A stretch of DNA of 64,000 bases from Spirochaetia bacterium (GTDB lineage Bacteria; Spirochaetota; Spirochaetia; SZUA-6; Bin103). How positions within the stretch are numbered: the stretch's first letter is position 1; each line of letters opens with the position of its first letter. The notes under the pieces were generated by a model, which was not told the DNA's origin, did no database searches, and saw nothing but the letters and a program-made list of their open reading frames with translations. Both the position numbers and the translations under genes were made by a program. The stretch covers positions 6,624,001-6,688,000 of the forward strand of contig CBDBDQ010000005.1 in the NCBI GenBank assembly GCA_965203905.1, given 5' to 3'. Below, in pieces: positions 2,763-50,177 of this stretch.

Positions 2763-2797
2763 TTGACACACTATCATCGTTGGTGAATGATACCAAC
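2763..2797 (+). promoter_or_regulatory. Promoter/operator of the RHH-MazF module, probably leaderless
   Basis: TTGACA at 2763; overlapping inverted repeats TATCAT..ATGATA and GTTGGT..ACCAAC directly before the ATG; no SD. Confidence 0.6.
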
Positions 2798-10475: not shown

Positions 10476-11200
10476 ACGTAACTCCGTATGTGGATTATCG
10501 AGAGTATTGCGCAGCGGACGCCCGCTCCCTGGCTACTCTCGCGCCCGCAACGCGGGTGGCCAGAAAGAGTCAATGGCCTGAAGCGCGCGACGTGCGACTC
10601 ACCGGGTTCACGTCGCGCGTGCGAGCGGTTCTTTGAGTATTACTTGCACCTCGTGTGGGCCGCGAACACCCGCAGGGGGGCCGCCGGCGACCCGCGATGC
10701 CCCGAAGTCATGCACCGTGGCGTGCGACGACACGGCAAAGCGTAGAAGGGGGAATGCGCGGCCAAGCGGTCCGGGAGTCACCGGACCGCGGAAATACGCG
10801 CCCTCCCGGGTGCGCCCCGGACGCTGCGTCGGGAGGGCGCGTCCAGTGCGTTTCAACGCACAGATCAACCAGTGCGACAGGACCGGACGCCGCGGTTCAG
10901 GCGGCGGGGATCCAGGACCGTTGCAGCGGCCACCGAACGAACGTGCCTTGAGCCGACGCCGAAGGTAGTCGGCCGCAATCCGGATGCGCAACGCGAAGGC
11001 CGCCGGGCGCTCCGCCGAAGCGGTTAAAGAATTATCATATAAAGAGTTGACTCGTGATGCGTGGGCCCGGGGGGGGGGGGGATGCACCGGCCGCATCGCT
11101 GCCATCCGGTTACTGGGCGGACGGTCCTGATGGCGTATGATCCTCATCCGTTTGCCCCTTGGGGTTTTCACTGTTTCACGCGCGCTTTGAGATGTCAAGC
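10476..11200 (-). promoter_or_regulatory. Conserved structured leader upstream of SBP2 (copy 1 of 3)
   Basis: Homologous to 23629-23763 + 28085-28569 and to 49668-50052; several hairpins; minus-strand TTGACA at the distal end. Confidence 0.6.
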
Positions 11201-11295
11201 TCGCGAACTCAACGGACTCAATCCGACTATCGTCCCCACGTGCACGGAGTGACCGTGAGTCGTGAGTCGGGAAATCGTAGTCGGCGGCAACGAGG

Positions 11296-16960: not shown

Positions 16961-18741
16961 TCAGAATCCCATTTCTTTCTTCAGCGCACTATCAATCCAG
17001 AGGCGGGAGAAGATCACTTCCTCCCCCCCGCTTAATATCATTTCACCGTTGTAGCCTATGAGCCATGGCTGGTTCACCGAAAACTGTGGAAGCAACGGAC
17101 CATATATCGTCCAATATTGCTCCAATGCGTACATGACCAAGTCTGGCACCAGCCTGTCCCGCTCCTCGATGGTGGTCGCGGCTGCGGCTGCGGCATGCAT
17201 GGCGTCATAAGTCGGGTCGCTGACGTTGCTATTTACACCATCCGTGGTAAACCCACCCATGATTGACACCGCCCACTGCATGGAAACAGCATACGCCGTA
17301 TCGTTACTGGTCATTTCGTATTCCTGAGCTGTTCTTCTGGGGCCCCATGCAGCTGCTGGCGTTACTTCAATCTCCACGTCTACGCCAATCTTATCCCAGT
17401 ATGAAGCGGCTAATTCCGCATAGTTTAGATCGAAGCGCTCGAGATGCATCAACTTAGTCTTGAATCTAGTTCCGTCCGCGCCGCGAGGATACCCAGCCGC
17501 ATCAAGCAACGCTTCGGCCCCTTCCGGGTTATACGTGCGGGCCTTCCGGAGCTCTTCGGGCCACTCTTCGAATGGGATGGACCCACCTTTCATGAAACGG
17601 CCCAGTCGCCCTTGAGGTATCGGGTCTCCAAAACCCTTGAAGTACGAATTGTTGATTGTCTCGAAGTCCAGTGCCATGTTCATTGCCTTGCGCACCCTGA
17701 TGTCGTCAAAGGGTTCTATCTGAGTGTTCATGGCAAAACCATTATCCGACCGAAACCGTACCGGCCATAATTCGACTTCGGGATTGGTCCGCTGGATGCT
17801 CTCTACCTGCTCGACAGTCCTGAGTTGAGCTACCCCGGCCACACCGACGTAATCAACCTTGCCCGTGCGCATTGCCGCCAGTTGTGTTGCCACTTCGGGC
17901 ATAATCAGAGCCCTTAACGTGTCAACATACGGCAAGCGGTTCTCCGGGTATTTTTCGTCGTAGCCCCAGTAGCCAGGATTCTTGCTATAGGTGATAGAGC
18001 TGCCCTCGGTCCAGTCAGTCAGCTCAAAAGGACCGGTGCCGACTAGGTTCCTCCAATCCGTTACATCCCCGTGTTCCTCGATCACCTCGGGGGGGTACAT
18101 GACAGCAAGGGAGTCGTCGAGGATAACCATCAGCGTAAGGAGATTTGGCTCCTTCAGCTTGAAAACAACGGTCGATTTGTCGGTGGCCGTTATGGATTCG
18201 AATGACACCCTGGTCAAGAGACTATAAGCGGCGCTGGGTTCGGTGAAGCCGCTGCCCAGACCCAGAGTACGGTGAAAGTTGTATACGATATCGTCGGCAG
18301 TCAGCTCCCGACCGTTCATTGGTGCCTTTTCGTGCCAGTGAACGCCCTGGCGGACTTTGACGATAACGGTTTTGTCGTCGGGCATTTCCCAGCTTTCCGC
18401 CAGAGCCCCCCTCGTGTAATTTGGAGCGGCCATAGTCGGGAAGCTATATTCGTCCCTGGGCGTTGCCCAGTCGCCGATGCCTAACTTCTCTACGACCAGG
18501 CCCGCGGCCACCACACCCCCACTCAAATGTTTGTCAGTATGCGAAGGCGATTCTTTCTTGACGTAGGTTATGGTCCCGCCATACTCCGGCGCGGTCACCA
18601 TCTTGCCGGTGGTCGGGTCGGTCACCATTTCCTTCTCCATCGCCGCGGCCGGCTCCTCCTCCGAGGCAGCCGCCCAGAGGCCGGTGGCGGTCAGTGCGAG
18701 GCCACACAGCACGGCGAGCGAATGCGCATTACGAAATGCAT
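16961..18741 (-). CDS. dppA: ABC solute-binding protein family 5 (SBP3)
   Basis: Family-5 motifs; AGGAG + ATG at 18741 is one base out of frame with the ORF, likely a 1-nt deletion. Confidence 0.9.
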
Positions 18742-21840: not shown

Positions 21841-23628
21841 CTAGTGACCCATAGCTTCCTTCAGCTCACTATCAATCCAGAGGCGGGCGAAGATGGCGGT
21901 ATATTGACCGTTTCCCAACGCCCCTTCATTGTTAAACCCTTTGATCCACGGCTGGATCGCCACATACAGTGGGGCCCCAGGACCCCAAATCGTCCAGAAC
22001 TTCTCTATCCCATACTGATTCAACTCTCCGGCTATCCTGTTTTGCTCCTCGAGGGTGGTAGCGGCTCCGCCGGCTTCAAACTTGGCTGTATAAACCGGAT
22101 CGTTGACATTGGAGGTATTCCAAGGTGCGGCCGGCACATAGCGAAACATTACTGGCAATGGGTACCAAATACTGGCCCCCTCCGCGTTGATCATTTCGAA
22201 ATCCCTCTCATTTCTTCTAGGGCCATATGTAGCTGCTTCCTGTACATCAATCTCTACATTAACGCCAATCTTATTCCAGTATGAGGCGACTAATTCATCA
22301 TAGTTCAAATCGTACCGGACGAAATGCATCAACTCGGTCTTAAATCTAATGCCGTCCGCGCCGCGAGGATACCCGGCCTCATCAAGCAGCGCTTCGGCGC
22401 CTTCCGGGTCGTAGTCAAAGACCTTCTTGACATCTTCGGGCCAATCTTCAAATTGGGTGGCAACCTCTGTAAACATACGGTTTAGCAGCCCCTGAGGTAT
22501 TGCATCTGCATTACCCTTATAGTAGGCATTGTTAATTTCTTCGAGGTTTATTGCCATCTGCATTGCCTTGCGCACCCTGATGTCGTCGAAGGGCTCTATC
22601 TGAACGTTCATGCCAAACATAGTCCCCCCACTCCCGACGGAAAACGACGATATCACGACTTCAGGGTTGGTCCGCTGGAGGCTCTCTACCTGGTCGAGAC
22701 TCCTCATTGCGGCTTGGCCGTTCCGACCTAGGTAATCAACCCGACCCGTGCGCAGTGCCGCCAGCTGTGTTGCCGGTTCCGGCATAGTCAGGGCCCTTAA
22801 CCGGTCAACATAGGGCAAGCGGTTCTCCGGGTATTTTTCGTCGTAGCCCCAGTAGTCAGGATTCTTGTCCCAGGTGATAGAGCTGCCCTCGGTCCAGTCA
22901 GTCAGCATAAAGGGCCCGGTGCCGACCAGGTTCCTCCAATCCGTAACGTCCCCATGTTCCTTGATTACCTCGGGGGGGTATATCCGAGCCATGTTGCCGT
23001 CGAGCATAGCAACCAGCGCAAAGAGGTGTGGCTCCTTCAGCTTGAAAACTACCGTCCATTTGTCGGTGGCCGTTACCGATTCCACTTGCACATCGCGCCA
23101 GCTAGTAGCAAATTCGCTACGTTCGGTGAAACCGCTGCCAAGTCCCAAGATACGGTGAAAGTTGTACTCGATATCTTGGGCAGTCAGTTCCCGACCGTTC
23201 ATCGGCGGCTTATCATGCCAGCGAACGCCCTGGCGGACTTTGACGATATACGTCAGTGAGTCGGGCTGCGACCAGCTTTCCGCCAACTGCCCTTTCGTGT
23301 TAGCTGGTACGTTGAGAAACTGGAAGTTCCATTTGACCCTGGGCGTTGCCCAGTCGCCCCAGGCCAGCTTCTCTAAAACGCCATCGATGCCTCCCACCGA
23401 ACCAGAGACCACCAAGTCAGTACCCGGCGGCTCTTCTTTTTGGGCGAAGGTCAGTGTCCCGCCATACTCCGGCGCGGTCACCACCTTGCCGGTGGAGGGG
23501 TCGGTCACATACTTCTTGTCAGCCGCGGCTGCCGGCTCCTCTTCTGTGCCACCCGCCCAAAGGCCGGTTGCGGTCAGGGCGAGGACCAACGCAATCGCGA
23601 AGGTCATTCTGATTTTTACAATGTTCAT
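21841..23628 (-). CDS. dppA: ABC solute-binding protein family 5 (SBP4)
   Basis: 595 aa with signal peptide and family-5 motifs. Confidence 0.93.
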   Translation of the reverse strand: MNIVKIRMTFAIALVLALTATGLWAGGTEEEPAAAADKKYVTDPSTGKVVTAPEYGGTLTFAQKEEPPGTDLVVSGSVGGIDGVLEKLAWGDWATPRVKWNFQFLNVPANTKGQLAESWSQPDSLTYIVKVRQGVRWHDKPPMNGRELTAQDIEYNFHRILGLGSGFTERSEFATSWRDVQVESVTATDKWTVVFKLKEPHLFALVAMLDGNMARIYPPEVIKEHGDVTDWRNLVGTGPFMLTDWTEGSSITWDKNPDYWGYDEKYPENRLPYVDRLRALTMPEPATQLAALRTGRVDYLGRNGQAAMRSLDQVESLQRTNPEVVISSFSVGSGGTMFGMNVQIEPFDDIRVRKAMQMAINLEEINNAYYKGNADAIPQGLLNRMFTEVATQFEDWPEDVKKVFDYDPEGAEALLDEAGYPRGADGIRFKTELMHFVRYDLNYDELVASYWNKIGVNVEIDVQEAATYGPRRNERDFEMINAEGASIWYPLPVMFRYVPAAPWNTSNVNDPVYTAKFEAGGAATTLEEQNRIAGELNQYGIEKFWTIWGPGAPLYVAIQPWIKGFNNEGALGNGQYTAIFARLWIDSELKEAMGH

Positions 23629-23944
23629 ACGTTTCTCCGTATGTGGATTTTTCGAGAGTATTGCGAAGCGGATTGCCGCTTCCTGGCTACTCTCGCGCCC
23701 GCAACGCAGGCGACCAGCCAGATAGAGTCAACTTCCTGAAGCGCGCGGCGTGTGACTCACCGTTATTGCGTTGCGCGCCCAAGGGCGGGGTGAGGGCGTA
23801 CCGGTTGCAGTGACGATGACGTAGGCGGAGGAGCGACAGGGGCGTAAAGTGTGAAGCCCGCAGCAGGTAAATGCTGCGGGCTTCACTTTTAGGCGGCCTC
23901 GGCGAGCGGAAGACAACCGCCCGCCGAGGCCCGAGAGGCAGCGA

Positions 23945-24769
23945 GTGTCCGAGGGTGCAACCGAGGCACACGCGCTCCCGTTCGCGACGACGAACTACCA
24001 GGCGGATCAGGACGGAACCTTGCGCGCCGTGCTGCCGTCGCGGTGTGTCTACGCCACGGGGGAGCAGACGTGTGCCATCTTCGTCGATCATTACCGCGAG
24101 CGCAAGACCGGGCCCCGCTATCCGCTAGCGGTGGTGGGGTGCGGGGTGCATGGGGGCCGGCGCTACACCCTGTATCCGCCCGGACACTACCCCTACGGAC
24201 GGGTGGCGGTGGTGCCCTACAGCGCAGGCGGAGACGTGCTGTTGGACGCAACCGGCAAACGACCGCAGTGGCAGGTGACGCTGTTCGGGGCCGCGCAGGA
24301 TGCGAAGCAGGGGAAGCTGTGGCCAGCCGAGCAGCACTGGTGGCAAGCGTTGAGTACGCCCTGCCGGCGCATCCAGGGACGGCGCCTGGAGCTGGCCGGT
24401 CGGTTGACCGGGGTCAGCCCGGAGTTGGACCAGCGGCAGCGGGAGCAGATCGCGACGCGCTTGGGAGTGGCGACCATGACCGTGCTCTGGGGAGCGCGCT
24501 GCTGGGGGCGCAGCTGGCGCAGCCGCGGCGTAGCGATCATGGCGGTGTTGCTGGCGCTGGCGGTCAGCGCGACGCTGGGGGAGCGCATGGGTGCGGCTGG
24601 TGCGGTCAGCGACCTGTGGGGGCCACCGCGCCCGCGGCTGGTGGCGCGCTGGGAGCAGGCCGGCCAGAGCTGGGTGGTGGCCGCGAGCGGTCGTTCAGCA
24701 GCGCGGGAACAGGGGGTTGTCGACCACCTTCGGGGACGGGCGCCCCCGGCCACGAAAGCGCTTATTTGA
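23945..24769 (+). CDS. Transposon accessory protein with Cys/His cluster (DUF6431-like position)
   Basis: First ORF inside the TIRs; C-x8-C..H..C-x2-H..TLYP..PYGR pattern. Confidence 0.55.
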   Translation: MSEGATEAHALPFATTNYQADQDGTLRAVLPSRCVYATGEQTCAIFVDHYRERKTGPRYPLAVVGCGVHGGRRYTLYPPGHYPYGRVAVVPYSAGGDVLLDATGKRPQWQVTLFGAAQDAKQGKLWPAEQHWWQALSTPCRRIQGRRLELAGRLTGVSPELDQRQREQIATRLGVATMTVLWGARCWGRSWRSRGVAIMAVLLALAVSATLGERMGAAGAVSDLWGPPRPRLVARWEQAGQSWVVAASGRSAAREQGVVDHLRGRAPPATKALI

Positions 24770-24798
24770 AGCCTCCCGTACGGCGCTACGGTAGGCGC

Positions 24799-26205
24799 AT
24801 GAATGATTCGTCACGTCCCCCGTTACCGATCTCGGCTACCGCGCTGCTGCGCTACCTGGTGATCGCCGAGATGGAGGCCCTGGTGTTGCGCGGGTGGCCT
24901 GCGGGCGCCGCGGTACGCAAGGTTGCCCGCGCACCGCGGATCGACCTGGACGGTCGTCCGGTGCGGATCAGCGTGCGTACCCTGCAACGCTGGCGCGCGG
25001 CCTGGGCGAGCGGTCGGCTCGCCGCCCTGGAGCCGCAGCCGCGCACCCGCACCGAGACCTCACTGGCGCTGAGTCCGCAACTGGTCACCTTTCTGCGCAC
25101 CGAGAAGCAACGTGATGTGCGCGCCTCGGTGCCGGAACTGGTGCGGCGGGCGCGCGAGCGCGGCATCATCCCGGTCGACGCCAAGATCGATCGCACCACG
25201 GTGTGGCGCGCCTGTCGGCGAATGGGCCTGCCGACGCGTCAGCGACCACACAAACACGAAGCGGACACGCGTCGCTGGCGCTATGCCGAGCGCATGCAGT
25301 GCGTGCTTGCCGACGGCAAGCACTTCCGCGCCGGCGCAGCGCGGCTGCGGCGGGTGGCGCTGTTCTTCCTCGACGATGCCACCCGCTACGGCCTGGAGGT
25401 GGTGGTGGGCACCGCGGAGTCCAGCGAGCTGTTCCTGCGCGGCCTCTACGAGGTGGTCATGCACCACGGCACTGCGGATCTGTACTACCTGGACAAAGGC
25501 CCGGGCTTCATCTCCAAGGACACCCTGGCCGTGGTCCAGGGCGGCCTGGGCACCTTGCTGATTCACGGCGCCACCAGGTATCCCGAGGGCCACGGCGCCA
25601 TCGAGCGCTTCCATCGCACCGCTTACGATCAGGTGCTGCGTTCCTTCGACGGTGCCGCCGACGTGGACCCCGCTTGCCAGGCACTCACGCTGCGCCTGCG
25701 CCACTTCCTGAACCGCTACAACGACACCCCGCACGAGACGCTCGGCAAGGACACCCCGCGCCAGCGCTGGGAGCAGGGACGGGAGTTGCGCTTTCCCACC
25801 GACGAGGCCGATCTGTATCGCCGCTTCGTGGTGCGCGCCATGCACAAGGTCTCCAACGATCACGTCATCAAGGCCGCCGGTCGGTTGTGGGAAGCGCCGC
25901 GCCGCAGCGCCCGCTGTTGGGTCGAGGTGGCGCGCCACGTGCTCGACGGGCGGCTGTGGGTTCAGCACCAAGGGCGCATGATCGAGCTGGCCGAGCTGGA
26001 TCCCCACGCCAACGCGACCTCACCGCGCGGCTCCGGCAGCGCGCCACAACCGACCGCCGACGAGGACGGCGAGGAACTCCCCGCCACCGCGGCCGGCATC
26101 GCCTACGCCAACGACACCCGCCCGCTGGTCGACCCCGACGGCGGCTACCGCGACCCGCAGGACGACCAACAGGACGACCAACACGTCCAGGAGCAGCAGC
26201 CATGA
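24799..26205 (+). CDS. DDE transposase (MuA/TnsB-like)
   Basis: HTH (SVRTLQRW); DDE residues in LADGKH, YLDKGPGF and AIERFHR; YNDTPH motif. Confidence 0.9.
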   Translation: MNDSSRPPLPISATALLRYLVIAEMEALVLRGWPAGAAVRKVARAPRIDLDGRPVRISVRTLQRWRAAWASGRLAALEPQPRTRTETSLALSPQLVTFLRTEKQRDVRASVPELVRRARERGIIPVDAKIDRTTVWRACRRMGLPTRQRPHKHEADTRRWRYAERMQCVLADGKHFRAGAARLRRVALFFLDDATRYGLEVVVGTAESSELFLRGLYEVVMHHGTADLYYLDKGPGFISKDTLAVVQGGLGTLLIHGATRYPEGHGAIERFHRTAYDQVLRSFDGAADVDPACQALTLRLRHFLNRYNDTPHETLGKDTPRQRWEQGRELRFPTDEADLYRRFVVRAMHKVSNDHVIKAAGRLWEAPRRSARCWVEVARHVLDGRLWVQHQGRMIELAELDPHANATSPRGSGSAPQPTADEDGEELPATAAGIAYANDTRPLVDPDGGYRDPQDDQQDDQHVQEQQP

Positions 26206-27005
26206 GCCACGACCTCAGCCCACTGGGCTTCCGCAAGACCCCCTTTACTCGCGAGTTGACCGTGCGCGAGTGCTTCCCGCTCGAACCTCAGGCCCAGGTC
26301 GCCGCCGCACTCACCGCGGCGGTGCAGGAGCGCATGAGCGCCGCCCTCATCGCTCCCGCCGGCACCGGCAAGACCGTCGCCTTGCGCATGCTCGTCGCCA
26401 CCCTGCCGGAGGTGCGCTTCCAGGTCCACTACGTCAAGGTGACCGGCCTCTCCAAGCGTGACCTGTGCAAGGAAATCGCGGTCGCCTGCGGCCTCTCTCC
26501 CACCGGGATCTATCCCGCTCTGGTGCGCAAGCTGCAGGACGCGTTCGAACATACCGTCAGCGACGGCATGCGCCCCGTCATCCTGCTCGACGAAGCCCAT
26601 GATCTGCGCCCCGAAGCGTTGGCCATGTTGCGCGTCCTCACCAACTTCACAATGGACAGTCGCCTCGTCGTGTCCCTCGTGCTCGCCGGCCAGCCACTCC
26701 TGAAACTGCTGCTCCGGCGCCCTGAACAAGCCGCCATCGCGCAGCGCCTGGCGCACTACGCCGAACTGCGCCTGCTGTCCCGCGATGAGACCCGCGCCTA
26801 CCTCGAACATCGCTGCACCCTCGCCGGCGCTCGCACCAATCCCTTCGACGACGACGCTCAGGAAACCATCTTCGAAATGAGCCGCGGCAACCTGCGTGCC
26901 ATCGACCGCTTGGCCCTGGCGGCGCTGCACCACGCCGCCAAGTCTTCTCACACCACCGTCAGTGCCGGCGACGTGATCGCCGCGCGCAAGTACCTGTGGC
27001 CATGA
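26202..27005 (+). CDS. ExeA/TnsC-like AAA+ ATPase
   Basis: GFRKTPF, Walker A APAGTGKT, Walker B ILLDEAH, LAGQP, SRGNLRAI; ATGA overlap with the transposase. Confidence 0.9.
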   Translation: MSHDLSPLGFRKTPFTRELTVRECFPLEPQAQVAAALTAAVQERMSAALIAPAGTGKTVALRMLVATLPEVRFQVHYVKVTGLSKRDLCKEIAVACGLSPTGIYPALVRKLQDAFEHTVSDGMRPVILLDEAHDLRPEALAMLRVLTNFTMDSRLVVSLVLAGQPLLKLLLRRPEQAAIAQRLAHYAELRLLSRDETRAYLEHRCTLAGARTNPFDDDAQETIFEMSRGNLRAIDRLALAALHHAAKSSHTTVSAGDVIAARKYLWP

Positions 27006-27940
27006 CCACACCGCTGCCCACCGTTCCGGTGCATGCCATCGATCCCCAGCCCGACGCTCCCCAGTGGCTGGTGCGCGACCTCTGGACCACCGCGGCTGTC
27101 GGCGTGATCGGGGGCAGCCCCAAGGTTGGCAAGTCCTGGCTCGGCCTTGACCTCGCCGTCTCGGTCGCGTCCAGCACCCCGGCCCTCGGGCGGTTCCCGG
27201 TCGAGGCCACCGGCCCCGCCCTGGTCTATCTCGCCGAGGATGCTCTGCCACGCGTCCGCGACCGTGTCGCCCACTTGTGCCGCCACCGCGGTTTGGATCT
27301 GGCACGCCTCGATCTGCACGTCGTCACTGCTGACCGCTTGCGCCTCGATACCGAGCGCGACCAGCTCGCTCTCGACCAGACCGTGCAACGGATCCGCCCG
27401 GCACTACTGCTGTTGGACCCTCTGGTCCGACTTCATTCCCTCGATGAGAACAGCGCTTCAGACATCTCTTCTCTGCTCGGCTTTCTGCGCGCACTCAACC
27501 GCCGCTATCAACTCGCTGTGGTCCTCGTCCACCACCTGGCCAAGCGCTCGCGCCGCAATCTCGGCCAGTCCCTGCGCGGCTCCTCCGATCTGCATGCCTG
27601 GACCGACTCCGCCTGCTATCTGGTGCGGCGTCCCGACGACCGTCTGCAACTCACCGTCGAGCATCGCTCCGCTCCCGCTCCAGACCCCCTGCTGTTGCGC
27701 CTCTCAGGCGGCGCCGACCAGCCCCTCTCGCTGCTCGTCGACAACGCTGCCGCCGCCCCGCCTCCCCCGCTCGCCGAGGCGGTGCGCGCCACGCTCCGCA
27801 GCGCCGGCCAGCCGCTCTCCAGGACCGCTCTGCGGCAACGCTTGCGCGTCAACAACGCCCGTCTCGGTCTCGCCCTCCAAACTCTCCAACAGCACGGCCT
27901 CGCCGTCCGCGGCCCCAACGGCTGGCACCTGCCGGCCTGA
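27002..27940 (+). CDS. AAA_25/RepA-like RecA-fold ATPase with C-terminal wHTH
   Basis: GSPKVGKS, YLAED, LLLDPL, LVHH and LRGSS motifs; ATGA overlap with the preceding gene. Confidence 0.85.
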   Translation: MTTPLPTVPVHAIDPQPDAPQWLVRDLWTTAAVGVIGGSPKVGKSWLGLDLAVSVASSTPALGRFPVEATGPALVYLAEDALPRVRDRVAHLCRHRGLDLARLDLHVVTADRLRLDTERDQLALDQTVQRIRPALLLLDPLVRLHSLDENSASDISSLLGFLRALNRRYQLAVVLVHHLAKRSRRNLGQSLRGSSDLHAWTDSACYLVRRPDDRLQLTVEHRSAPAPDPLLLRLSGGADQPLSLLVDNAAAAPPPPLAEAVRATLRSAGQPLSRTALRQRLRVNNARLGLALQTLQQHGLAVRGPNGWHLPA

Positions 27941-28639
27941 CCGGCACCGTCGCCTGCCTACTCGCTCTCGTTCCGCCATTCCCGCGTTCCGCACCAGGGA
28001 CGCGCTCGGAACGGAACGACCACCGTACACACTCCGTGCCAACTATCGTGCAACTCGCCTCGGCTCAGGGCGCGCAACGCAACAACCGGGTTCACCCGGG
28101 CTCACGCCGCGCGCGCGAGCGGCTCTTTGAGTACTACTTGCACCTCGTCGTGGGGGCAGGGAGTAACCCGGCCGCGGAGAACCCACGGCACCAAGACGCG
28201 CCCCGGACGCTGCGCCGGGAGGACGCGCATAGTGCGTCGGAGCGCGCATTTCAAGCAGCGCGACAGGATAGCACGCCGCGATTCAGGAGCCGGGGATCCA
28301 GGACCGTTGCAGCGGCCAGTGAACGAACCTGCATTGGACCGGCGCCGGAGGTAGCCGGCCGCAACCCGGATGCTGAAGTCGAAGGCCGCGGTGCGATCAG
28401 CCGGAGCGGTCAGTTTCTCGGTTCGAATAGCTGCCGGGGGGGACGATTGGATGCACCGGTTGCGTCATCGCCATCCGGTTACTCTGCAGACGGCCGTGAT
28501 GGTGCATTATCCGCATCCGTTCGATCCTGAAGTTTCGTAGCATTTCACGCTCGCTTGGAAGTGTCAAGCTCACCCCCCGGGCCGGGACGGACCGGAGTTG
28601 GCATGGGAGAAACAGGGCTGCAAGCCTATACTGGGGGTT

Positions 28640-28825
28640 AGTCTTCGAGGGAGCGCGAAGTAGGCCGGCGATGCACTGGTGTAGCGCCCTGCGGCGAACC
28701 CGTTGTCAAGCTTGGTCCCGAGGCCCGTGGCGTTGTCATTGGTGAGGCTCAGCCCGCGACCGGTTGCGGTGGTGATCCATCCCGATAAGGAGAATGCGCA
28801 GTTGCTTCACGCCTTGGCCGCTCCA
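28640..28825 (+). ncRNA. Candidate IS110 bridge RNA (ends approximate)
   Basis: Contains TGTCAAGC (28704-28711, equal to left target + core), then TAAGGAG (28786-28792, equal to left donor + core) inside a GTGAGGC/GCTTCAC stem. Confidence 0.7.
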
Positions 28826-28844
28826 CTCATTCCCAGGAGGAGTC

Positions 28845-30239
28845 ATGGCACGACGCAAACGCAGAAGCAAACGCAGCGGCAAGGGCAATCGCTCGGCGCA
28901 GCCGCAGGTGGTGCACCCCGAGGCGGCAGGCCTGGATGTGGGCGCCACCATGATCTACGCGGCGGTACGCGCTGAGCGCGCCGAGCAGCCGATCCAATCG
29001 TTCCCGACCTTTACCCGCGATCTGCATGCCTTGGCCGATTGGCTGAGTACCTGCCAGGTAACCACGGTGGCCATGGAGTCGACCGGCGTGTACTGGATCC
29101 CGGTGCACCAGATCCTGGAAGCACGCGGCTTCGAGGTGGTGCTGGTCAACGCTCGCCACGTGCGCTCGGTGCCCGGTCGCAAGAGCGACGTCGAGGACTG
29201 CGAATGGCTGCGTTGCCTGCACTCGGTAGGGTTTCTGCGCGGCTCGTTCCGACCGGCTGACGAGGTATGTGCGGTGCGCTCCTTGTTGCGCCATCGCGAC
29301 AGCGTGATCAAGACCGCCTCCCGCAGCGTACTGCACATGCAGAAGGCGTTCGATCAGATGAACGTCCATCTGCACCACGCGATCTCCGATCTGACCGGGC
29401 TCAGCGGCCTGGCCATCACCGACGCCATCCTGGACGGAGAGCGCGACCCGACGCGCTTGGCGAAGCTGGCGCACCCGCGGATCAAGGCCAGCCGTGCCAC
29501 CCTGATCAAGGCTCTGGAGGGTGATTGGCGCAGCGAACATCTGTTCACCTTGCGCCACGCACGCCAGACCTATGCGCACTACCAGCAGCTCATCAGTGAG
29601 TGTGACCAGGAGATCATGGCCCGCATCCGCGCGTTCGAGCAGACCCAGGAGCCGCCCGCCGCGACCGCTACCGACCAGCAACCGCCGGAATCCCCTGAAC
29701 CGGGCCCGGAACCGCCTGCGTCGCCTCCGCAAGCGTGCAACATGAAAGCCCACCTGACGCGGTTGTTCGGCACCGACCTGACCCTCATTCCCGGTATCGG
29801 CGACACTACCGCGCTGGTGCTGTTCAGCGAACTCGGCCCCGATCTGTCACGCTTTCCGAGCGCCGCGCAGTTCGCATCCTGGTTGAACCTCTGTCCGCAG
29901 AACAAGATCACCGGCGGCAAGGTGATCAGCTCTCAGACGGGGCCCGGCGCCAACCGTGCGGCACAGGCGCTGCGCATGGCAACCCAGACCCTGTACCGCA
30001 GCCACTCCGCGCTCGGTGACTTCTTCCGCCGCAAGCGGGCCCGCGTCGGCTCCCCGCAGGCGATTACCGACACCGCCCACAAGCTGGCGCGCATCATCTA
30101 CCACCTGGTGACCCGCCACGTCCTCTACGATGACAACGTTCTGCTCCAGCAACAGCGCCAGGACCGTAAACGCCATGAACGGCGACTTCGAAATCAGGCC
30201 CGCGCTCTCGGCTTCAAACTCGTTCCGGAGGCTGCCTGA
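28845..30239 (+). CDS. IS110 DEDD recombinase/transposase
   Basis: GLDVG, AMESTGVYW, RKSDVED, IPGIG and RFPSAAQFASW motifs; AGGAGG RBS. Confidence 0.95.
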   Translation: MARRKRRSKRSGKGNRSAQPQVVHPEAAGLDVGATMIYAAVRAERAEQPIQSFPTFTRDLHALADWLSTCQVTTVAMESTGVYWIPVHQILEARGFEVVLVNARHVRSVPGRKSDVEDCEWLRCLHSVGFLRGSFRPADEVCAVRSLLRHRDSVIKTASRSVLHMQKAFDQMNVHLHHAISDLTGLSGLAITDAILDGERDPTRLAKLAHPRIKASRATLIKALEGDWRSEHLFTLRHARQTYAHYQQLISECDQEIMARIRAFEQTQEPPAATATDQQPPESPEPGPEPPASPPQACNMKAHLTRLFGTDLTLIPGIGDTTALVLFSELGPDLSRFPSAAQFASWLNLCPQNKITGGKVISSQTGPGANRAAQALRMATQTLYRSHSALGDFFRRKRARVGSPQAITDTAHKLARIIYHLVTRHVLYDDNVLLQQQRQDRKRHERRLRNQARALGFKLVPEAA

Positions 30240-30385
30240 ATGCTTGGTTTCTAAGGAGCGTGCGCAGACTCGACTGACTCGACGACTGGACTCGACTTGA
30301 ACATCGTCTTCCAAGTCACGGACTGACCGTGCCGAATCCGTTGCGCCTCGCACCTTGGAGACGATAGATTTCAGTGCGGAACGTA

Positions 30386-31010
30386 ATGAGCACGCCACCC
30401 ACGCACCCGCGCATTCCTACGGCGAGGCCGACTTCAGCGCATCCGCCTCAACCGGTGGCGGTACGTCGACAAGACCCGCTTCCTGCGGCGTCTGGAGGAG
30501 GAGCGCTACGCCTTTCTCATCCGTCCGCGCCGCTTCGGCAAGTCGCTCGGGGCGTCGGTCTTGGAGAACTACCACGACCGCTTCTGGGCGGACGGCTTCG
30601 ACGCCACCTTCGCCGGTACCGACATCGGGCAGCACCCGACCGGGGAACAGAGCCGCTATGTCACCCTCGCTTCGACTGTTCAAACGTCAACGACGCGCTC
30701 GACACCCTGGAGCGGGAGTTCACTCCTTCACCCACGGCGGCGGCTTCTACCGCAACTTCTTCGCCACCCTGAAGTCCGGGGCGGGGCGCACCGGCGGCGG
30801 TCTGGAACGGCTGTTCATCACCGGGGTGTCACCGGTCACCATGGACGACGTGACCAGCGGCTGCAACATCGGCTACAACGTCAGCCTGGAACCCGACCTC
30901 AATGAGATGGTCGGCTTCACCGAGGCGGAGGTGCGGCACCTGGTGGAGACGGTACCGGGAGCTGGGCGTGCTCAATGAGGACGCTGCGACCGCCATGGGC
31001 ATCATGGGCG
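30386..31010 (+). pseudogene. AAA-ATPase-like / PD-(D/E)XK protein remnant
   Basis: IPYGEADF..YVDKT..RPRRFGKS and LFITGVSPVTMDDVTSG segments with frameshifts and an internal deletion. Confidence 0.85.
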
Positions 31011-36914: not shown

Positions 36915-38693
36915 CTAGAATCCCATTTCTTCCTTCAACTGACTATCAATCCAAAGGCGCGAGATAACGAGGCTGTCCTCATTCGGTCCGAGATCGAATT
37001 CACCGCTGTAGCCTGTGACCCACGGCTGGAGTGCCCAAAACTGGGGAGCCTTGGGGCCCCATATTTGATAGTGGTGCTCGATCGCGTACATATCAACCTC
37101 TCTCACCCACTTCTGCTGCTCCTCGAAGGTAGTAGCGGCCAGAGCGGCGTCAACGAGAGCGTCCAACTCAGGCCACTGATGCAAGGGACGGTTCCACTGT
37201 GCGTCCGAGCGATGCCAGCCTACTAGAACTGGAGCGGCATAACTGGCGCCCCCAAGGCTTTGCATCATGCCTTCATAGCTACGCGCGAAGAGGTCCGCGT
37301 GATACAGGGCCCAGTCGCTGTAATCGTTGACCTCCACGTCGACGCCGATTTCGGCCCAGTAGGCGGCAGCGATCTCTGCATAGCTTGACCCACCGAGTGA
37401 CCTCGCGGACGTCTTGAATCGCGTGCCATCCGCGCCGCGCGGATATCCAGCCTCATCAAGGAGCTCCTCGGCACCTTCCGGGTCGTACGTATAGCCCTTC
37501 TTGACCTCTTCGGGCCACTCTTCGAATGGGATGTAAAACCCTTGAGCCCCTACTATCCCCTGAGGCGTCGCACTTGCGTAGCCCTTCCAGTACGTGTCCG
37601 CAATGGTCTCGAGGTCCAGGGCCATTTGCATCGCCTTGCGCACCCGGACGTCGTCAAAGGGCGGCACTCTTACGTTTGCAGCAAAGGTAGCCGTAGACCG
37701 AAAATAATGCGTATGTAGCACGATTTCGGGGTTGGTCTTCTGCAGGCTGTCTACGGCGTCGACAGATTTTAACCAACCACCTGAAGGGCCTCTGAGATCA
37801 ATCGTCCCTGAGATGAGTGCCGCCTGGAGTGTTGCTTCCTCCGGAATAATCAAATAACGTACCTCGTCAACGTAAGGCAGGCGGTTCTCGGGGTACTTTT
37901 CGTCATAGCCCCAGTAATCAGGGTTTCTGGTCCGGGTAGAAGAGCTGCCGTCCACCCAGTCAGTCATCTCAAAGGGCCCGGTGCCGACCAGGTTCCTCCA
38001 ATCCGTGATACCACCGTGTTCCTTGATTACCTCTGGCGGCAATATGTAAACCATCAGATCCTGGGTGATGACCTGAAACGCGGGCAGGTAAGGCCGCTTC
38101 AACTTCATGACAACCGTCGAATCGTCGGACGCAGTCACCGATTCGAATGGCACGCCAAGGAGGTTGGAAGCGCCCCCAAAGGGGGATGGTCCGACGTCGG
38201 CGAAGTCGCCCAGACCTACCATACGGTGAAAGTTGAATTCGACATCCTGCGCCGTCAGCAGACGGCCGTTCATCGGGGCCTTATCGTGCCAGCGAACGCC
38301 GTCGCGGATGTGGAAGATAAAGGTGGTATCGTCAGGCGTTTCCCAGCTTTCGGCCAGCCGCCCCGTTACCACGAACGGCGGGTAGGTGTTCGCCGCTTTC
38401 AAGTCCCACACATCTCTGTCTATTCCCCAGTTGGCGATAGCCAGCTTCTCCAAGACGCCCATGATCGGTGGGTCTGGCCAGCCGGAATAGGGGTCCCAAC
38501 TATTGAGCATGCCCTTGTAACCGACGGTCAGCGTCCCGCCATACTCCGGCGCCACTACCATCTCACCGGTGGTGGGATCGGTCACATACTGCTTGTCGGC
38601 GGCGGCGGCCGGCGCCTCCTCCTCGCCGCTGGCAAACGTAACGGTAGCCACCAGCGCGAGCGCCAGTGCCAATACAAGTGATCGAAGAGCCAT
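36915..38693 (-). CDS. dppA: ABC solute-binding protein family 5 (SBP5)
   Basis: GAGGAG RBS, start MALRSLV, signal peptide ending TFA; family-5 motifs. Confidence 0.92.
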   Translation of the reverse strand: MALRSLVLALALALVATVTFASGEEEAPAAAADKQYVTDPTTGEMVVAPEYGGTLTVGYKGMLNSWDPYSGWPDPPIMGVLEKLAIANWGIDRDVWDLKAANTYPPFVVTGRLAESWETPDDTTFIFHIRDGVRWHDKAPMNGRLLTAQDVEFNFHRMVGLGDFADVGPSPFGGASNLLGVPFESVTASDDSTVVMKLKRPYLPAFQVITQDLMVYILPPEVIKEHGGITDWRNLVGTGPFEMTDWVDGSSSTRTRNPDYWGYDEKYPENRLPYVDEVRYLIIPEEATLQAALISGTIDLRGPSGGWLKSVDAVDSLQKTNPEIVLHTHYFRSTATFAANVRVPPFDDVRVRKAMQMALDLETIADTYWKGYASATPQGIVGAQGFYIPFEEWPEEVKKGYTYDPEGAEELLDEAGYPRGADGTRFKTSARSLGGSSYAEIAAAYWAEIGVDVEVNDYSDWALYHADLFARSYEGMMQSLGGASYAAPVLVGWHRSDAQWNRPLHQWPELDALVDAALAATTFEEQQKWVREVDMYAIEHHYQIWGPKAPQFWALQPWVTGYSGEFDLGPNEDSLVISRLWIDSQLKEEMGF

Positions 38694-39179
38694 AATCGTG
38701 CTCCTCTTTTTTGCGGAGCGCGAGTCTGCGCCCCGTTTTTTTTGCCGGATACTCCGGCTTTTTTTTTCGTGTAGTGTTGCTGTTGGCCGGCCCTGCGATC
38801 CTGCCGCTCGGAACGGAAAGCAGCGAGCAGGCTGCGGTGCTCGAGCGCTGCGCAGGGGCACGGGCGGGCTACCCGCCGCAACCCGCGAGCAGCGTGGTGT
38901 GCTGGGAGTGGAGTTCTGCTGGTCGCCCGGCTGATAGCCGCGACGGGGTGAAAGACTGACGAATTGCGAGTGCCCGGCTGGCGGAGCGGTTAGTGAGCCG
39001 GTCTACTAGGTTGTGTTCATATTCCCCGGGGGGGGGTAGGCGAGGATAGGACGCGCCGGTTGCGTTGCCGCTAGGAGCGTGTCGGCTGCGCCGACGAGGT
39101 CCGAGCGTACCGGTGGGATGGGCCACCCGCTTCGCGGCCCTTCGGGGCGGCGCCTCGGGCGTCGGTTTTGGGGCGCTAG

Positions 39180-47904: not shown

Positions 47905-49667
47905 TCAGAAACCCATTTCTCTCTTTAGATCCTCGTCAATCCAGACGCGGGTAAAGACGGCGTTATAGCGACCGTCTCCCAACCGGTGCTCGCCGTTATA
48001 GCCGATGACCCACGGCTGGATTACGGCAAACTGTGGGGCCACGGGACCAAATATCGTCCAGAACTGCTCTACGCCATACAACTGCAACTCTTTGACCAGG
48101 CTGTTGAGCTCCTCCACGCTGGAAGCGCCCTTGGCCTCCTCGAACTTGGCGTTATACCACGGATCGTCAACATTGGAGGAGTTGTGTCCGGTGGTCGTCA
48201 AGTAGCGCGCGGACCACCCCAAGGGCTGTCCCTTCCCGGCCGCTTCCGCATTCGTCATGACGAAATCTCGCGCACTTCGTTTGGCCGCGTGGGACGGCGG
48301 CGAATGGACATCTATCTCGACCTCGACGCCAATCTCTTTCCAGTATGACGCGAGTAATTGTATGTAGTTCACATCGTAGCGTTCGAGATGGATCATCGTG
48401 GTCTTGAAGCCATCGGGATAGCCCGCTTCAGCCAACAGCTCTTTGGCTCCTTCGGGGTCGTACGTAAAGACCTTCCTGACCTCTTCCGGCCAATCTTCAA
48501 ACTGGATGACCGCCTTTGAAGTCCGGCTCAGTTGCCCCTGAGGTATTATATCGGCGTAGCCCTTGTAGTAGGCGTCGTTGATCTCCTCCAGGTTCAAGGC
48601 CATCTGCATCGCCTTGCGCACGCGGATGTCGTCAAACGGTTTCACCTGGACATTCATGCCGACGCCGTTGTCCGACCGACGGATATAGGGCCATATTACC
48701 AGCTCGGGGTTGGTCCGCTGAAGGCCCTCTATCTGCTCAAGCGTCCTCAGTTGACGCTCATAATCGACGCGACCCGTGCGCAGTGCCGCCATACGGGTCG
48801 CCGGTTCGATCATGATCAGGGCCCGCAACTCGTCAATGTAGGGCAACCGGTTCTGCGGGTACTTCTCGTCATGGCCCCAGTAATCGGGGTTCTTCACCCA
48901 CGTGACTGAGCTGCCTTCGACCCGGTCGGTCAGCAGCATCGGTCCGGTGCCGACCAGGTTCTGCCAATCGCCCGCGTCTCCGTGTTCCTCGATGACCTCC
49001 GGCGGGTACATCCAGCCCATGAAACTGTTCAAGACAGCCGGCAGAATTGTGAGGGTCAGTTTTTCCAGCTTGAATACCACCGTCGATTCATCGGTTGCCG
49101 TTACCGAAGCTATGTTCGCGCCCGCGAGCAGTTCCCATGGCATGATCGTGCGCTCGGTGAACCCACTGCCGAGTCCCAACAGACGGTGATAGTTGTACTC
49201 GATATCCTGAGCCGTCAGCACCCGTCCGTTCATCGGTGGCTTGTCATGCCAGTGAACGCCCTGGCGCACATTGACGACCACCGTCGTTGGGTCGGGCTGC
49301 GACCAGCTTTCCGCCAGTGCCCCGCTCGTGTGGTCTGGCGGGAACAGAAACACAAAGTCGAATTTGTCCCTTGGCGCCGCCCAGTCTGCCATACCCAGCT
49401 TTTCGAGCACGGGATCAATCAGGGCTTCCGCCCAGCCGCCTGGAACGACGATGTCGGCACTTGCCGACGTGCCGGTTTTGACGAAGGTCAATGTCCCACC
49501 ATACCGCGGTGCCGTCACCATCTCGCCGGTACTCGGGTCGAGCACCATTTCCTTCTCTGTGGCGGCTGCCGGCTCCTCTTCGCCGGCTGGACTTGCCCAG
49601 AGACCGGTGGTAGTCAGGACCAGGACCAACGCAACCGGAAGGTCAGTCGGATTATTGCAATATTCAT
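47905..49667 (-). CDS. dppA: ABC solute-binding protein family 5 (SBP6)
   Basis: Family-5 motifs; ATG at 49667 (MNIAIIRLTF, cf. SBP4) is one base out of frame near 49637. Confidence 0.9.
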
Positions 49668-50052
49668 GCGTATCTCCGTATGTCGGGTTTTGAGAGTATC
49701 GCGTAGCGGATCCCTGGCTACTCTCTGCCAGGCCGAGTCAGATTCCTGAAGCGCGCGGCGTGTGACTCACCGGGTTCACGCCGCGCGCGGGTGCGGTTCT
49801 TTGAGTATCACTCGCATCTCGTGTGCGCCGGGAACACCGCCACGGTGTTTGCCGGCGACCCACGAGGTCCCGGAGTCATGCAGCGCAGCCGGTAGAGACG
49901 CGGCAAAGTGTTGACGGGAGGGGGGGACGATTGGATGCACCGGTTGCGTCATCGCCATCCGGTTACTCTGCAGATGGTCGTGATGGTGCATTATCCGCAT
50001 CCGTTCGATCCTGAAGTTTCGTAGCATTTCACGCTCGCTTGGTGGTGTCAAG
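49668..50052 (-). promoter_or_regulatory. Conserved structured leader of SBP6 (uninterrupted copy)
   Basis: Four or more hairpins; contains the empty sites of both elements inserted in the SBP4 leader. Confidence 0.6.
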
Positions 50053-50177
50053 CGTGCGCAGACTCGACAGTGACTCGACAGACTCGACTTGACCATCGTC
50101 TTCCGGGTCACGGACTGACCGTGCCGAATCCGTTGCGCCTCGCACCTTGGAGACGATAGATTTCAGTGCGGTACGTA

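What the first reader, a model, noticed from the sequence alone, without database searches (positions are those of the whole stretch)
28545..28711. The IS110 guide spells the reverse complement of the sigma70 -35 box
Seen: guide TGTCAAG is the reverse complement of CTTGACA, and the insertion lies directly upstream of a minus-strand TTGACA that is conserved in all three leader copies (11194, 28563, 50046). Further GCTTGACA sites precede the RHH-MazF module (2761) and the desaturase (5016). Inference: the element may be programmed to land just outside -35 boxes. These are abundant intergenic sites where the core promoter survives but upstream regulation is replaced.
Basis: partly seen in the sequence, partly recalled or inferred. 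Interest (0 to 1): 0.7.

Follow-up and report, generated by a model that had tools for sequence, protein, structure and literature searches.

The report
IS110 guide matching the -35 box
A small jumping gene carries an RNA guide that makes it insert right next to the sequence bacteria use as the first half of a promoter, so about half of its copies sit just upstream of genes' start signals, though there is no proof that it evolved for that purpose.

Summary
Window 28569-30258 is a 1690-bp IS110-family element. TGTCAAG at 28704-28710, in its 5' non-coding end, repeats the 7 bases left of the element (28562-28568). All 5 identical copies in the genome follow TGTCAAG. Guide and flank change together in 9 related lineages, and the guide 7-mer recurs at the left junction in 52 of 78 distant relatives. 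It is therefore a bridge-RNA left target guide.

The complement, CTTGACA, contains this organism's real -35 box. After intergenic TTGACA, a TAnnnT signal stands at exactly 17 bp. CTTGACA ranks 12th of 16,226 7-mers for lying upstream of a co-oriented gene.

The site at 28562 is a plausible promoter of an ABC-transporter operon. It reads TTGACA-N14-TGn-AATGCT and is conserved in three paralogous leaders.

The element reads only the word. Of 25 occupied CTTGACA sites, 19 are intergenic and 11 lie upstream of a gene. That matches the free sites (179 and 106 of 275). Six occupied sites are inside genes. The guide also drifts among close relatives.

TGTCAAG is nevertheless the commonest guide among 81 lineages and appears in at least three separate clades. 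Promoter-side landing is a real effect. Selection for it is possible but unproven.

The parts
28569..30258 (+). IS110-family insertion sequence, 1690 bp. It has no inverted repeats, and the core AG is shared with the target.
   Evidence: Five identical copies in the genome. Empty paralogous site at 50046. A contig of run X7 skips exactly 1690 bases.
28562..28568 (+). Left target TGTCAAG (5 bases plus core AG). On the minus strand it reads C + TTGACA, the -35 hexamer at 28562-28567.
   Evidence: Logo over 28 sites of the TGTCAAG-guide lineages: T27 G28 T26 C28 A28 A28 G28.
28539..28547 (-). Candidate extended -10 of the flanking promoter: TGA then AATGCT, 17 bp after TTGACA.
   Evidence: Sequence. 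Copy 3 (50046) has the same hexamer, and copy 1 (11193) has TGA-AACAGT. The organism's -10 signal TAnnnT stands at spacer 17. The simple promoter scan did not call it.
28627..28632 (+). -10-like hexamer TATACT inside the left end, conserved as TAnnnT. It is a possible internal promoter for the bridge RNA.
   Evidence: Alignment of 9 lineages reads TATACT, TAGACT, TATTAT, TATTGT, TATAGT. Its function is inferred only.
28648..28825 (+). Conserved core of the presumed bridge RNA, with two stem-enclosed domains. Stem A is 28663-28667 with 28713-28717. Stem B is 28718-28724 with 28811-28817.
   Evidence: nhmmer finds this core in 78 places of 160 distant loci. RNAalifold on 35 sequences gives 26 pairs, 17 with compensatory changes, and G-U pairs that fit only the + strand.
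28670..28674 (+). Right target guide (GAUGC) on the 5' side of the first loop. C28674 pairs with the core G.
   Evidence: Complementarity diagonal over 40 lineages: r-3 with core G 0.82, r-4 with +1 0.57, r-5 with +2 0.55, against about 0.25 elsewhere. (G)CATC occurs in 3 of 5 own right flanks.
28703..28710 (+). Left target guide TTGTCAAG on the 3' side of the first loop.
   Evidence: Covaries with the left flank in 9 lineages. The guide 7-mer recurs at the left junction in 52 of 78 distant relatives.
28786..28792 (+). Left donor guide TAAGGAG, identical to the element's right end (30252-30258).
   Evidence: Covaries with the right end. G403 has TTCAGGAG with CTCAGGAG. G359 has TTTAGGAG with CTTAGGAG.
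28845..30239 (+). Recombinase gene, 464 aa from ATG 28845. The open frame reaches back to ATG 28794.
   Evidence: PF01548 at 6e-19 and PF02371 at 1.6e-13. The only PDB relative is the IS621 transposase 8wt6, E=1.5e-6.
28086..28568 (-). Promoter-proximal part of leader copy 2 of a paralogous ABC-transporter operon. It is cut off from its gene.
   Evidence: Homology 10602-11202 with 28096-28571, and 49920-50053 with 28436-28569.
23763..28085 (+). 4.3-kb transposon splitting leader copy 2. Ends are TTATTGCGTTGCGCGCCC and TTGTTGCGTTGCGCGCCC (inverted), with a 3-bp CCG duplication. This is context, not part of the IS110.
   Evidence: Sequence comparison with copy 1. Genes carry HTH_32, AAA_22 and AAA_25.
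21841..23762 (-). SBP_bac_5 gene (21841-23628) and the gene-proximal leader piece (23629-23762) that the promoter at 28562 once served.
   Evidence: Pfam 2.1e-71. Homology 10476-10604 with 23629-23762.
50046..50052 (-). Unoccupied paralogous target and -35 (copy 3), upstream of the SBP gene 47905-49629.
11193..11199 (-). Unoccupied paralogous target and -35 (copy 1), upstream of the SBP gene 8682-10475.

Best explanation
Window 28569-30258 is an active IS110-family insertion sequence. It consists of a DEDD/Transposase_20 recombinase and an RNA encoded in its 276-nt left end, which I take to be a bridge RNA.

How it aims. In the first stem-enclosed loop of that RNA, UUGUCAAG has the same sequence as the DNA left of the insertion point, so it pairs with the bottom strand. 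A short segment, GAUGC, on the other side of the loop pairs weakly with the first 2-4 bases to the right. In the second loop, UAAGGAG matches the element's own right end. Recombination takes place at a shared AG. The target is in effect the 7-mer TGTCAAG plus a weak right-hand preference.

Why it lands at promoters. TGTCAAG is the complement of C+TTGACA, and TTGACA-N17-TAnnnT is this organism's housekeeping promoter. About two thirds of the genome's roughly 280 such words are intergenic, and about 4 in 10 stand just upstream of a co-oriented gene. The element therefore lands one base upstream of a -35 hexamer in roughly half of its insertions. The core promoter stays whole and everything further upstream is displaced.

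The copy in the window. Here it landed at the promoter of an Opp/Dpp-like ABC-transporter operon, whose leader is in addition split by a 4.3-kb transposon.

Limits. The element does not sense promoter function. It also inserts into the same word inside genes and into its own guide-coding DNA.

Shown: anatomy, guide-flank covariation, word statistics and site census.
Inferred: transcription of the RNA, base pairing as the mechanism, and activity of the flanking promoter.
For: - Family: Pfam DEDD_Tnp_IS110 plus Transposase_20; IS621 transposase as the only PDB relative.
- Copies: five identical copies, each after TGTCAAG.
- Ends: empty site at 50046, and a contig that skips exactly 1690 bases.
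- Guide and flank covary in 9 lineages of the family's genomes: TGTCAAG (G000 5/5, G409 17/20, G395b 2/2, G401 1/1), AGTCAAG (G410), GTAAAG (G395a), TGTGAAG (second element of G000), TCAAGAG (G403) and TCAGGAG (G359).
- The rule holds in 52 of 78 distant left ends.
- Donor guide and right end covary.
- Stems have compensatory changes in 17 of 26 pairs.
- Right-guide diagonal: 0.82, 0.57, 0.55.
- -10 signal after intergenic TTGACA, n=269: T 0.38, A 0.49, T 0.44 at spacer 17.
- CTTGACA: 280 sites, 59% intergenic, 29% in promoter position. It ranks 3rd of 4478 and 12th of 16,226.
- Occupied sites: 19/25 intergenic and 11/25 before a co-oriented gene, like the background.
- A sister lineage with the guide TCAAGAG sits in genes in 10 of 15 cases.
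- The paralogous leaders keep TTGACA-N14-TGn-AAnnnT, while their overall identity is 72%.
Against: - No read shows the RNA or the flanking promoter being transcribed. The runs laid were contigs.
- Rfam has no matching family.
- No right donor guide could be found.
- The two bottom-strand guides lie on the 3' sides of their loops. Durrant et al. place them on the 5' sides for IS621 (passages read).
- The residue aligned with the serine of the IS621 'ESG' motif is a threonine here.
- The promoter scan does not call the site at 28562, because its -10 matches TATAAT in only 3 of 6 places.
- Gene calls for the census come from my own crude codon-bias caller.
- The background is from G000 only, while 20 of the 25 occupied sites are from other genomes.
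- Some G409 sites are paralogous to each other (L107 and L121).
Confidence: 0.75

Rival explanations
1. Selected promoter homing. The guide TGTCAAG is kept or re-invented by selection because sites one base upstream of -35 boxes are safe harbours, or because uncoupling promoters from upstream control is useful. On this reading the match to the -35 box is adaptive.
For: - TGTCAAG is the commonest guide among 81 lineages. It occurs in 5 rows, where 0.11-0.27 are expected from position frequencies.
- It sits in three separately supported clades of the recombinase tree: own clade, L158 and L186.
- It is the most promoter-associated of all guide words seen, and ranks first of 319 CT-starting words of equal composition.
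- The single site of L158 is TTGACA-N17-TATCAT.
- All promoter measures lean upward in occupied sites. nAnnnT at 16-18 bp: 12/25 against 95/275. -10 match of 4 or more of 6: 4/25 against 21/275.
- The TCAAGAG lineage is mostly genic, 10/15.
Against: - None of the differences from the background is significant (p = 0.12-0.67).
- Other guides recur as often: TTAAGAG 4, TTAGAAG 3, TGGAGAG 3. The independence model is therefore poor.
- Close relatives have left the word by 1-4 changes and still multiplied, for example G403 with 15 copies.
- The tree is a FastTree with local supports only.
- The finding was picked out because the word was recognised, so a post-hoc discount applies.
Confidence: 0.25
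2. Pure coincidence with no functional promoter at this site. The TTGACA at 28562 is just a conserved piece of a leader, and the element is only one of many with an arbitrary 7-mer guide.
For: - The promoter scan finds nothing there.
- The -10 matches only 3 of 6 places.
- There are no TSS data.
- The operon downstream is already cut off by a transposon.
- CTTGACA is not enriched in the window.
Against: - The three paralogues keep TTGACA, the 17-bp spacing, TGn and A2/T6, at 72% overall identity. Homology between copies 1 and 3 ends at the hexamer.
- 33% of promoter-position TTGACA sites in this genome have nAnnnT at 17 bp, against 11.5% of genic ones.
- Other occupied sites are textbook promoters. 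L093 is TTGACA-N16-AATAAT followed by a ribosome-binding site and ATG. L114 is TTGACA-N17-TAGATT.
Confidence: 0.15
3. TGTCAAG belongs to the element (a terminal repeat), or the element homes to the repeated leader sequence rather than to a 7-mer.
For: The word directly abuts every copy, and the window copy lies in a repeated leader.
Against: - The empty paralogue at 50046 and the X7 contig keep one TGTCAAG without the element.
- Only 1 of 5 own copies is in a leader, and the other flanks are unrelated.
- The flank changes with the guide across lineages.
Confidence: 0.02

Closest known systems
IS621 of E. coli and its bridge RNA (Durrant et al. 2024, PMC11208160, passages read; structure paper PMC11208158, abstract only)
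   Same: - DEDD plus Transposase_20 recombinase.
- Long non-coding left end and short right end.
- A guide identical to left flank plus core, a guide identical to the element's right end plus core, and a short guide complementary to the right flank.
- A 2-nt core shared by donor and target.
- Scarless insertion.
   Different: - The core is AG, not CT.
- Only one region, about 117 residues, aligns with the IS621 protein at E=1.5e-6.
- The bottom-strand guides are on the 3' sides of the loops, not the 5' sides.
- The right target guide effectively covers about 2-3 bases.
- No right donor guide was found.
- The likely promoter for the RNA lies inside the left end, about 60 nt from the junction, rather than across it (inferred).
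- Thr stands in place of the aligned Ser.
- The natural target is a -35-like word, not a REP element.
ISPpu9 / ISPpu10 of Pseudomonas putida and other REP-targeting IS110 elements (abstracts seen)
   Same: IS110-family elements that home to a short sequence that recurs many times in intergenic DNA. Insertions are therefore mostly harmless.
   Different: Those targets are repeated palindromic elements. Here the recurring word is a functional promoter element, each copy belonging to a different gene.
[quoted passage not shown]
   Same: Family members whose specificity points at a functional DNA signal of another genetic system. The second IS110 of this genome (guide TGTGAAG) likewise sits in the left end of a transposon.
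   Different: Those belong to the IS1111 group, with the RNA in the right end. Their targets are longer.
IS900 / IS901-type mycobacterial IS110 elements, said to insert between ribosome-binding site and start codon (recalled, no call)
   Same: An IS110-family target that coincides with a gene-expression signal.
   Different: That is a translation signal, not a transcription signal.

Membership tests
IS110 family (IS110 group) | N-terminal DEDD/RuvC-like domain (PF01548) with its acidic residues | tested here: met
   PF01548 at 6e-19. D of GLDVG in 79/81 relatives, E of MESTG in 80/81, and D..D of SDVxDC in 81/81 and 72/81.
IS110 family (IS110 group) | C-terminal Transposase_20 domain (PF02371) with the nucleophile serine | tested here: inconclusive
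   PF02371 at 1.6e-13. The residue aligned with S of the IS621 'ESG' motif is T here. Among relatives it is T in 19 and S in 60 of 81. That this S is the catalytic one is recalled, not checked.
IS110 family (IS110 group) | Long non-coding left end and short right end; no terminal inverted repeats; no duplication beyond a shared core | tested here: met
   The left end is 276 nt (28569-28844) and the right end 19 nt (30240-30258). AG stands at both junctions in all lineages.
IS110 family (IS110 group) | Circular intermediate with abutted ends | not testable with these tools
   Head-to-tail junctions (right end|left end) exist in G403 (L115/L118) and G359 (L095). These may be tandem copies.
Bridge RNA | Guide identical to left flank plus core, covarying with it | tested here: met
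   9 lineages. 52 of 78 distant left ends, where about 1% is expected per 220-nt window.
Bridge RNA | [quoted passage not shown] | tested here: met
   Short diagonal of 0.82 / 0.57 / 0.55, then fading. Positions +1 and +2 of 24 sites are biased: S 20/24 and W 18/24.
Bridge RNA | Donor loop: guide identical to the element's right end plus core | tested here: met
   TAAGGAG, TCAGGAG and TTAGGAG change together in left end and right end.
Bridge RNA | Donor loop: guide complementary to the element's left end | tested here: inconclusive
   No diagonal appears in the matrix. GGTGAG at 28751 fits the window's own left end but does not change with it in relatives.
Bridge RNA | Two stem-enclosed internal loops in a transcribed RNA | tested here: inconclusive
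   Stems have compensatory changes. Transcription is not shown: only contigs from RNA libraries cover parts of it. No Rfam family matches.
Bridge RNA of the IS621 type | [quoted passage not shown] | tested here: not met
   Both lie on the 3' side of their loops in the consensus fold. The 5'-side rule is quoted.
Sigma-70-type promoter (site 28539-28567, minus strand) | -35 hexamer, 17-bp spacer, -10 hexamer | tested here: inconclusive
   TTGACA matches 6/6, the spacer is 17, and AATGCT matches 3/6 with A2 and T6 plus TGn. The scan tool does not call it. It fits the organism's own TAnnnT signal only in A2 and T6.
Sigma-70-type promoter (site 28539-28567, minus strand) | A mapped transcription start | not testable with these tools
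   No raw RNA reads of this organism were on offer.

The most novel reading that the evidence does not exclude
A lineage of bridge-RNA insertion sequences has repeatedly settled on a guide that spells the housekeeping -35 box. In at least three clades these are promoter-homing elements. They use the cell's own promoter word as a safe, abundant, always-intergenic landing pad. They insert one base upstream of it, so the gene keeps its core promoter but loses its upstream control region. If so, natural bridge RNAs are tuned to functional genome signals and not only to repeats, and such elements would systematically rewire regulation.
Probability: 0.25. Interest if true: 0.7.

Novelty: new variant of a known kind. 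Interest (0 to 1): 0.5.

Why it matters
Bridge-RNA recombinases are being developed as programmable genome-writing tools, but little is known about what their natural guides point at beyond REP elements, attC sites and transposon ends.

Here a natural guide coincides with the host's -35 box. In this genome that word is one of the best single-word predictors of a promoter. The example shows how a 7-base guide can confine an element mostly to intergenic DNA: 76% of insertions, against 33% for a sister lineage with another guide. It also predicts a specific regulatory consequence, namely that the core promoter is kept while upstream sites are displaced.

The family further shows that the sides of the guide loops can be swapped relative to IS621, and that an element can hit its own guide-coding DNA.

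If selection for the -35 word were shown, it would be a new kind of target logic for RNA-guided mobile elements.

Tried and rejected
- Rfam: no family at gathering score in the whole window. Only chance-level hits in 27900-28900.
- Folding the left end alone gave no signal (z = +1.5). The 9-sequence consensus had little covariation. Only the 35-sequence set was informative.
- The promoter scan of 27900-30400 found no site.
- GGTGAG at 28751 was my first candidate for a right donor guide. It is constant while the left ends differ, so I dropped it. A second GTTGTCA at 28733 does not follow the target either.
- The search for related loci in genome contigs and metagenome contigs returned only relatives of 40-57% identity. 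The close relatives came from the genome search.
- Sequencing runs: all four runs laid were contigs, so no start, strand or level of any RNA can be read. Parts without cover mean nothing. RNA-library contigs over 28675-28952 and the recombinase gene are 90-99% alike and come from relatives.
- Not used: structure prediction, complex prediction, the protein atlas, and the phage, plasmid and E. coli collections. None bore on the question.
- Literature: three searches listed no paper that links an IS110 or bridge-RNA target to a -35 box. I judged this from listings and abstracts only. Supplementary tables of natural targets in PMC11208160 were not open to me and may contain such cases.

Caveats on the census:
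- The gene calls are my own codon-bias caller. It covers 78% of the main contig, which is probably too little.
- The 275 background sites include the five guide-coding copies inside the elements.
- Rows dropped before the count of 25: 3 near-match sites of G409 (AGTCAAG once, TGCCAAG twice) and the truncated L101.
- Two sites would move to 'before a gene' by eye: L113, where the operon is cut off by the transposon, and L117, where a tRNA gene follows. I did not count them.

Full report
WHAT IS THERE

The window is G000:C5:6624001-6688000. ORF 28794/28845-30239 (+) carries DEDD_Tnp_IS110 and Transposase_20. Its only relative among solved structures is the IS621 transposase.

The genome holds five 100%-identical copies. 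All five follow TGTCAAG, then begin CTCACC... and end ...TAAGGAG. The next base is C, G or A.

A paralogous site at 50046 reads TGTCAAG|Cgtgcgcag without the element. A DNA contig of run X7 joins 28566 to 30257, skipping exactly 1690 bases. That contig may come from a relative or from a paralogue.

The element is therefore 28569-30258. AG is present at both junctions and serves as the shared core.

THE GUIDE IS A BRIDGE-RNA LEFT TARGET GUIDE

In the genomes of the same family I found eight further lineages at 74-87% protein identity. In an alignment of their left ends, the eight bases between the invariant GAACCCG and CTTGG change together with the bases left of the element.

| Lineage | Guide | Left flank |
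|---|---|---|
| G000 | TTGTCAAG | TGTCAAG, 5 of 5 |
| G409 | TTGTCAAG | TGTCAAG 17, AGTCAAG 1, TGCCAAG 2, of 20 |
| G401 | TTGTCAAG | TGTCAAG, 1 of 1 |
| G395b | TTGTCAAG | TGTCAAG, 2 of 2 intact |
| G410 | TAGTCAAG | AGTCAAG |
| G395a | GAGTAAAG | AGTAAAG, TGCAAAG, TGTAAAG (twice) |
| second element of G000 | TTGTGAAG | TGTGAAG |
| G403 | TTCAAGAG | TCAAGAG in 14 of 15 copies; the 15th (TCAGGAG) abuts another copy's right end |
| G359 | TTCAGGAG | TCAGAAG |

A second variable word, xTAAGGAG at 28786-28792, changes together with the element's right end.

In 160 more distant loci (40-57% identity), nhmmer found the left-end core 78 times. In 52 of those 78 the guide's 7-mer recurs exactly 44-152 nt upstream, mostly at 106-152 nt. 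Seven more recur as 6-mers, and ten loci had too little upstream sequence.

A consensus fold of 35 sequences gives two stem-enclosed domains. 17 of 26 pairs show compensatory changes, and the G-U pairs fit only the + strand.

Both bottom-strand guides lie on the 3' sides of their loops. Durrant et al. describe them on the 5' sides for IS621 (passages read).

On the 5' side of the first loop, a short segment is complementary to the core G and to the first two or three bases of the right flank (0.82, 0.57, 0.55 over 40 lineages). For the window's element this segment is GAUGC (28670-28674). (G)CATC occurs in 3 of 5 own right flanks.

The target logo over 28 sites is T27 G28 T26 C28 A28 A28 G28. 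Position -8 is free. Position +1 is G or C in 20 of 24 sites, and +2 is A or T in 18 of 24. I found no right donor guide.

IS TTGACA A -35 BOX HERE, AND IS THE SITE A PROMOTER?

The genome has 66% G+C. After 269 intergenic TTGACA sites that precede a co-oriented gene, a signal of T 0.38, A 0.49, n, n, n, T 0.44 stands at exactly 17 bp. It is weak after 520 genic TTGACA sites. The organism therefore uses TTGACA-N17-TAnnnT.

CTTGACA occurs 280 times. 59% of these are intergenic and 29% lie 10-400 nt before a co-oriented gene start. That ranks 3rd of 4478 7-mers of equal composition, 1st of 319 among those that begin with CT, and 12th of 16,226 7-mers overall.

The window holds six paralogous Opp/Dpp-like ABC-transporter operons on the minus strand. 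The three 'leaders' are the 5' regions of three of them. All three read TTGACA-N14-TGn-AAnnnT: AATGCT twice and AACAGT once. Overall identity between copy 1 and the others is 72%, and homology between copies 1 and 3 ends at the hexamer.

This makes a real promoter likely. The simple scan does not call it, and no start site could be mapped.

In the window copy, the leader is also split by a 4.3-kb transposon (23763-28085). The promoter at 28562 therefore no longer reaches its SBP gene (21841-23628).

CTTGACA at 2762 is followed after 17 bp by AATGAT and then the ATG of an RHH-MazF pair. CTTGACA at 5017 precedes a desaturase gene.

DOES THE ELEMENT SEEK PROMOTERS OR A WORD?

I rebuilt the empty site of every copy and classified it with one gene caller of my own. 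I did the same for all 275 free CTTGACA sites of G000.

| Measure | Occupied exact sites (n=25: G000 5, G409 17, G395b 2, G401 1) | Free sites in G000 (n=275) | Fisher p |
|---|---|---|---|
| Intergenic | 19 | 179 | 0.38 |
| Co-oriented gene start 10-400 nt downstream | 11 | 106 | 0.67 |
| nAnnnT at 16-18 bp | 12 | 95 | 0.20 |
| -10 match of 4 or more of 6 | 4 | 21 | 0.14 |

Six occupied sites lie inside genes. The element mirrors the distribution of the word and shows no further discrimination.

The sister lineage G403, with target CTCAAGAG, is intergenic in only 5 of 15 cases (p = 0.018 against the TGTCAAG lineages). The choice of word therefore matters for where copies end up.

IS THE WORD SELECTED?

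Guides turn over fast on the recombinase tree, and rows a few percent apart carry different guides.

TGTCAAG is the commonest guide. It occurs in 5 of 81 rows, where 0.11-0.27 are expected from position frequencies. It occurs in three separately supported clades: the own clade, L158 and L186. The L158 site is TTGACA-N17-TATCAT.

However, TTAAGAG (4 rows), TTAGAAG (3) and TGGAGAG (3) recur too. The tree is a quick one. Close relatives that left the word have still multiplied. I put selection for the -35 word at about one in four.

COMPARISON AND NOVELTY

This is a new member of the IS110 group that works like IS621. Its peculiarities are:
- an AG core;
- swapped loop sides;
- a very short right target guide;
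- a probable internal promoter (TATACT at 28627-28632, conserved as TAnnnT);
- threonine at the position aligned with the serine of the IS621 ESG motif.

Three literature searches listed no report of an IS110 target that coincides with a -35 box (listings and abstracts only).

VERDICT

The mechanism is known in kind, and its details are newly worked out for this family. The promoter-side landing is a real, quantified effect of the word. That it is an adaptation remains open.

Noticed in passing
window 598-57040 (SBP genes at 598-2607, 8682-10475, 16961-18712, 21841-23628, 36915-38861, 47905-49629): Six paralogous Opp/Dpp-like ABC-transporter operons (SBP_bac_5 plus two permeases) lie on the minus strand of one 64-kb window. 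Several have split or shortened permease genes. Three keep a long conserved 5' leader of 400-720 nt, which matches no Rfam family.
   Followed up: partly
window 28085-28133: A 49-nt G+C-rich hairpin piece of the leader, also present at 10602-10659 and 49770-49822, has a contig depth of about 3200-3700 in two RNA-library runs of one study. The depth over the IS is 2-68. The contigs run on into sequence like the uninterrupted paralogues. It may be a highly expressed or very stable leader element in relatives. Strand and ends are unknown.
   Followed up: no
window 23763-28085: A 4.3-kb transposon with 18-bp inverted ends (17 of 18 alike) and a 3-bp CCG duplication. It carries a 720-aa HTH_32 protein, an AAA_22 ATPase and an AAA_25 protein. 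It is inserted in the hairpin of leader copy 2.
   Followed up: partly
L006/L120 (G000:C5:7727931-7729623) and window 23850-23856: The genome's second IS110 (74% protein identity, guide TGTGAAG) sits about 95 bp inside the left end of another copy of that 4.3-kb transposon. The same TGTGAAG site in the window's copy is empty. This is a transposon-end target, as known for IS4321/IS5075.
   Followed up: partly
L128 (G409:C3:2560312-2566236), L136 (G395:C2:2411223-2416709), and an RNA-library contig of X19 laid at window 30239 -> 28709: In three independent places, the right end of one copy is joined at the core AG to the sequence that follows the guide inside the left end. The result is a full copy followed by a copy lacking its first ~140 nt. 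The guide-coding DNA is itself a perfect left target, so the element seems to hit, or recombine with, its own guide.
   Followed up: partly
L115/L118 (G403:C4:1264419-1270471), L095 (G359:C2:196333-200739): Head-to-tail copies with the right end directly abutting the left end. In these two lineages the target guide (TTCAAGAG, TTCAGGAG) resembles the donor guide, that is the element's own right end. This would favour insertion next to a resident copy.
   Followed up: no
window 29898-29906 (residues NKITGGK of the recombinase): The residue aligned with the serine of the IS621 'ESG' motif is threonine in this multi-copy element. It is T in 19 and S in 60 of 81 relatives.
   Followed up: partly
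L157, L156, L026, L166, L068, L159, L212, L204 (left junctions): Eight distant relatives with guides such as TCCTGAG or TCCCGAG sit after (T)GTCA-TCCTGAG-like sequence. The same flank recurs in different metagenomes, which suggests a repeated host element as target. The TGTCA there lies 7 bases further from the insertion point than in the window.
   Followed up: no
window 2763-2808: The RHH-MazF pair appears to have a leaderless arrangement: TTGACA-N17-AATGAT, with the ATG 7 bases later.
   Followed up: no
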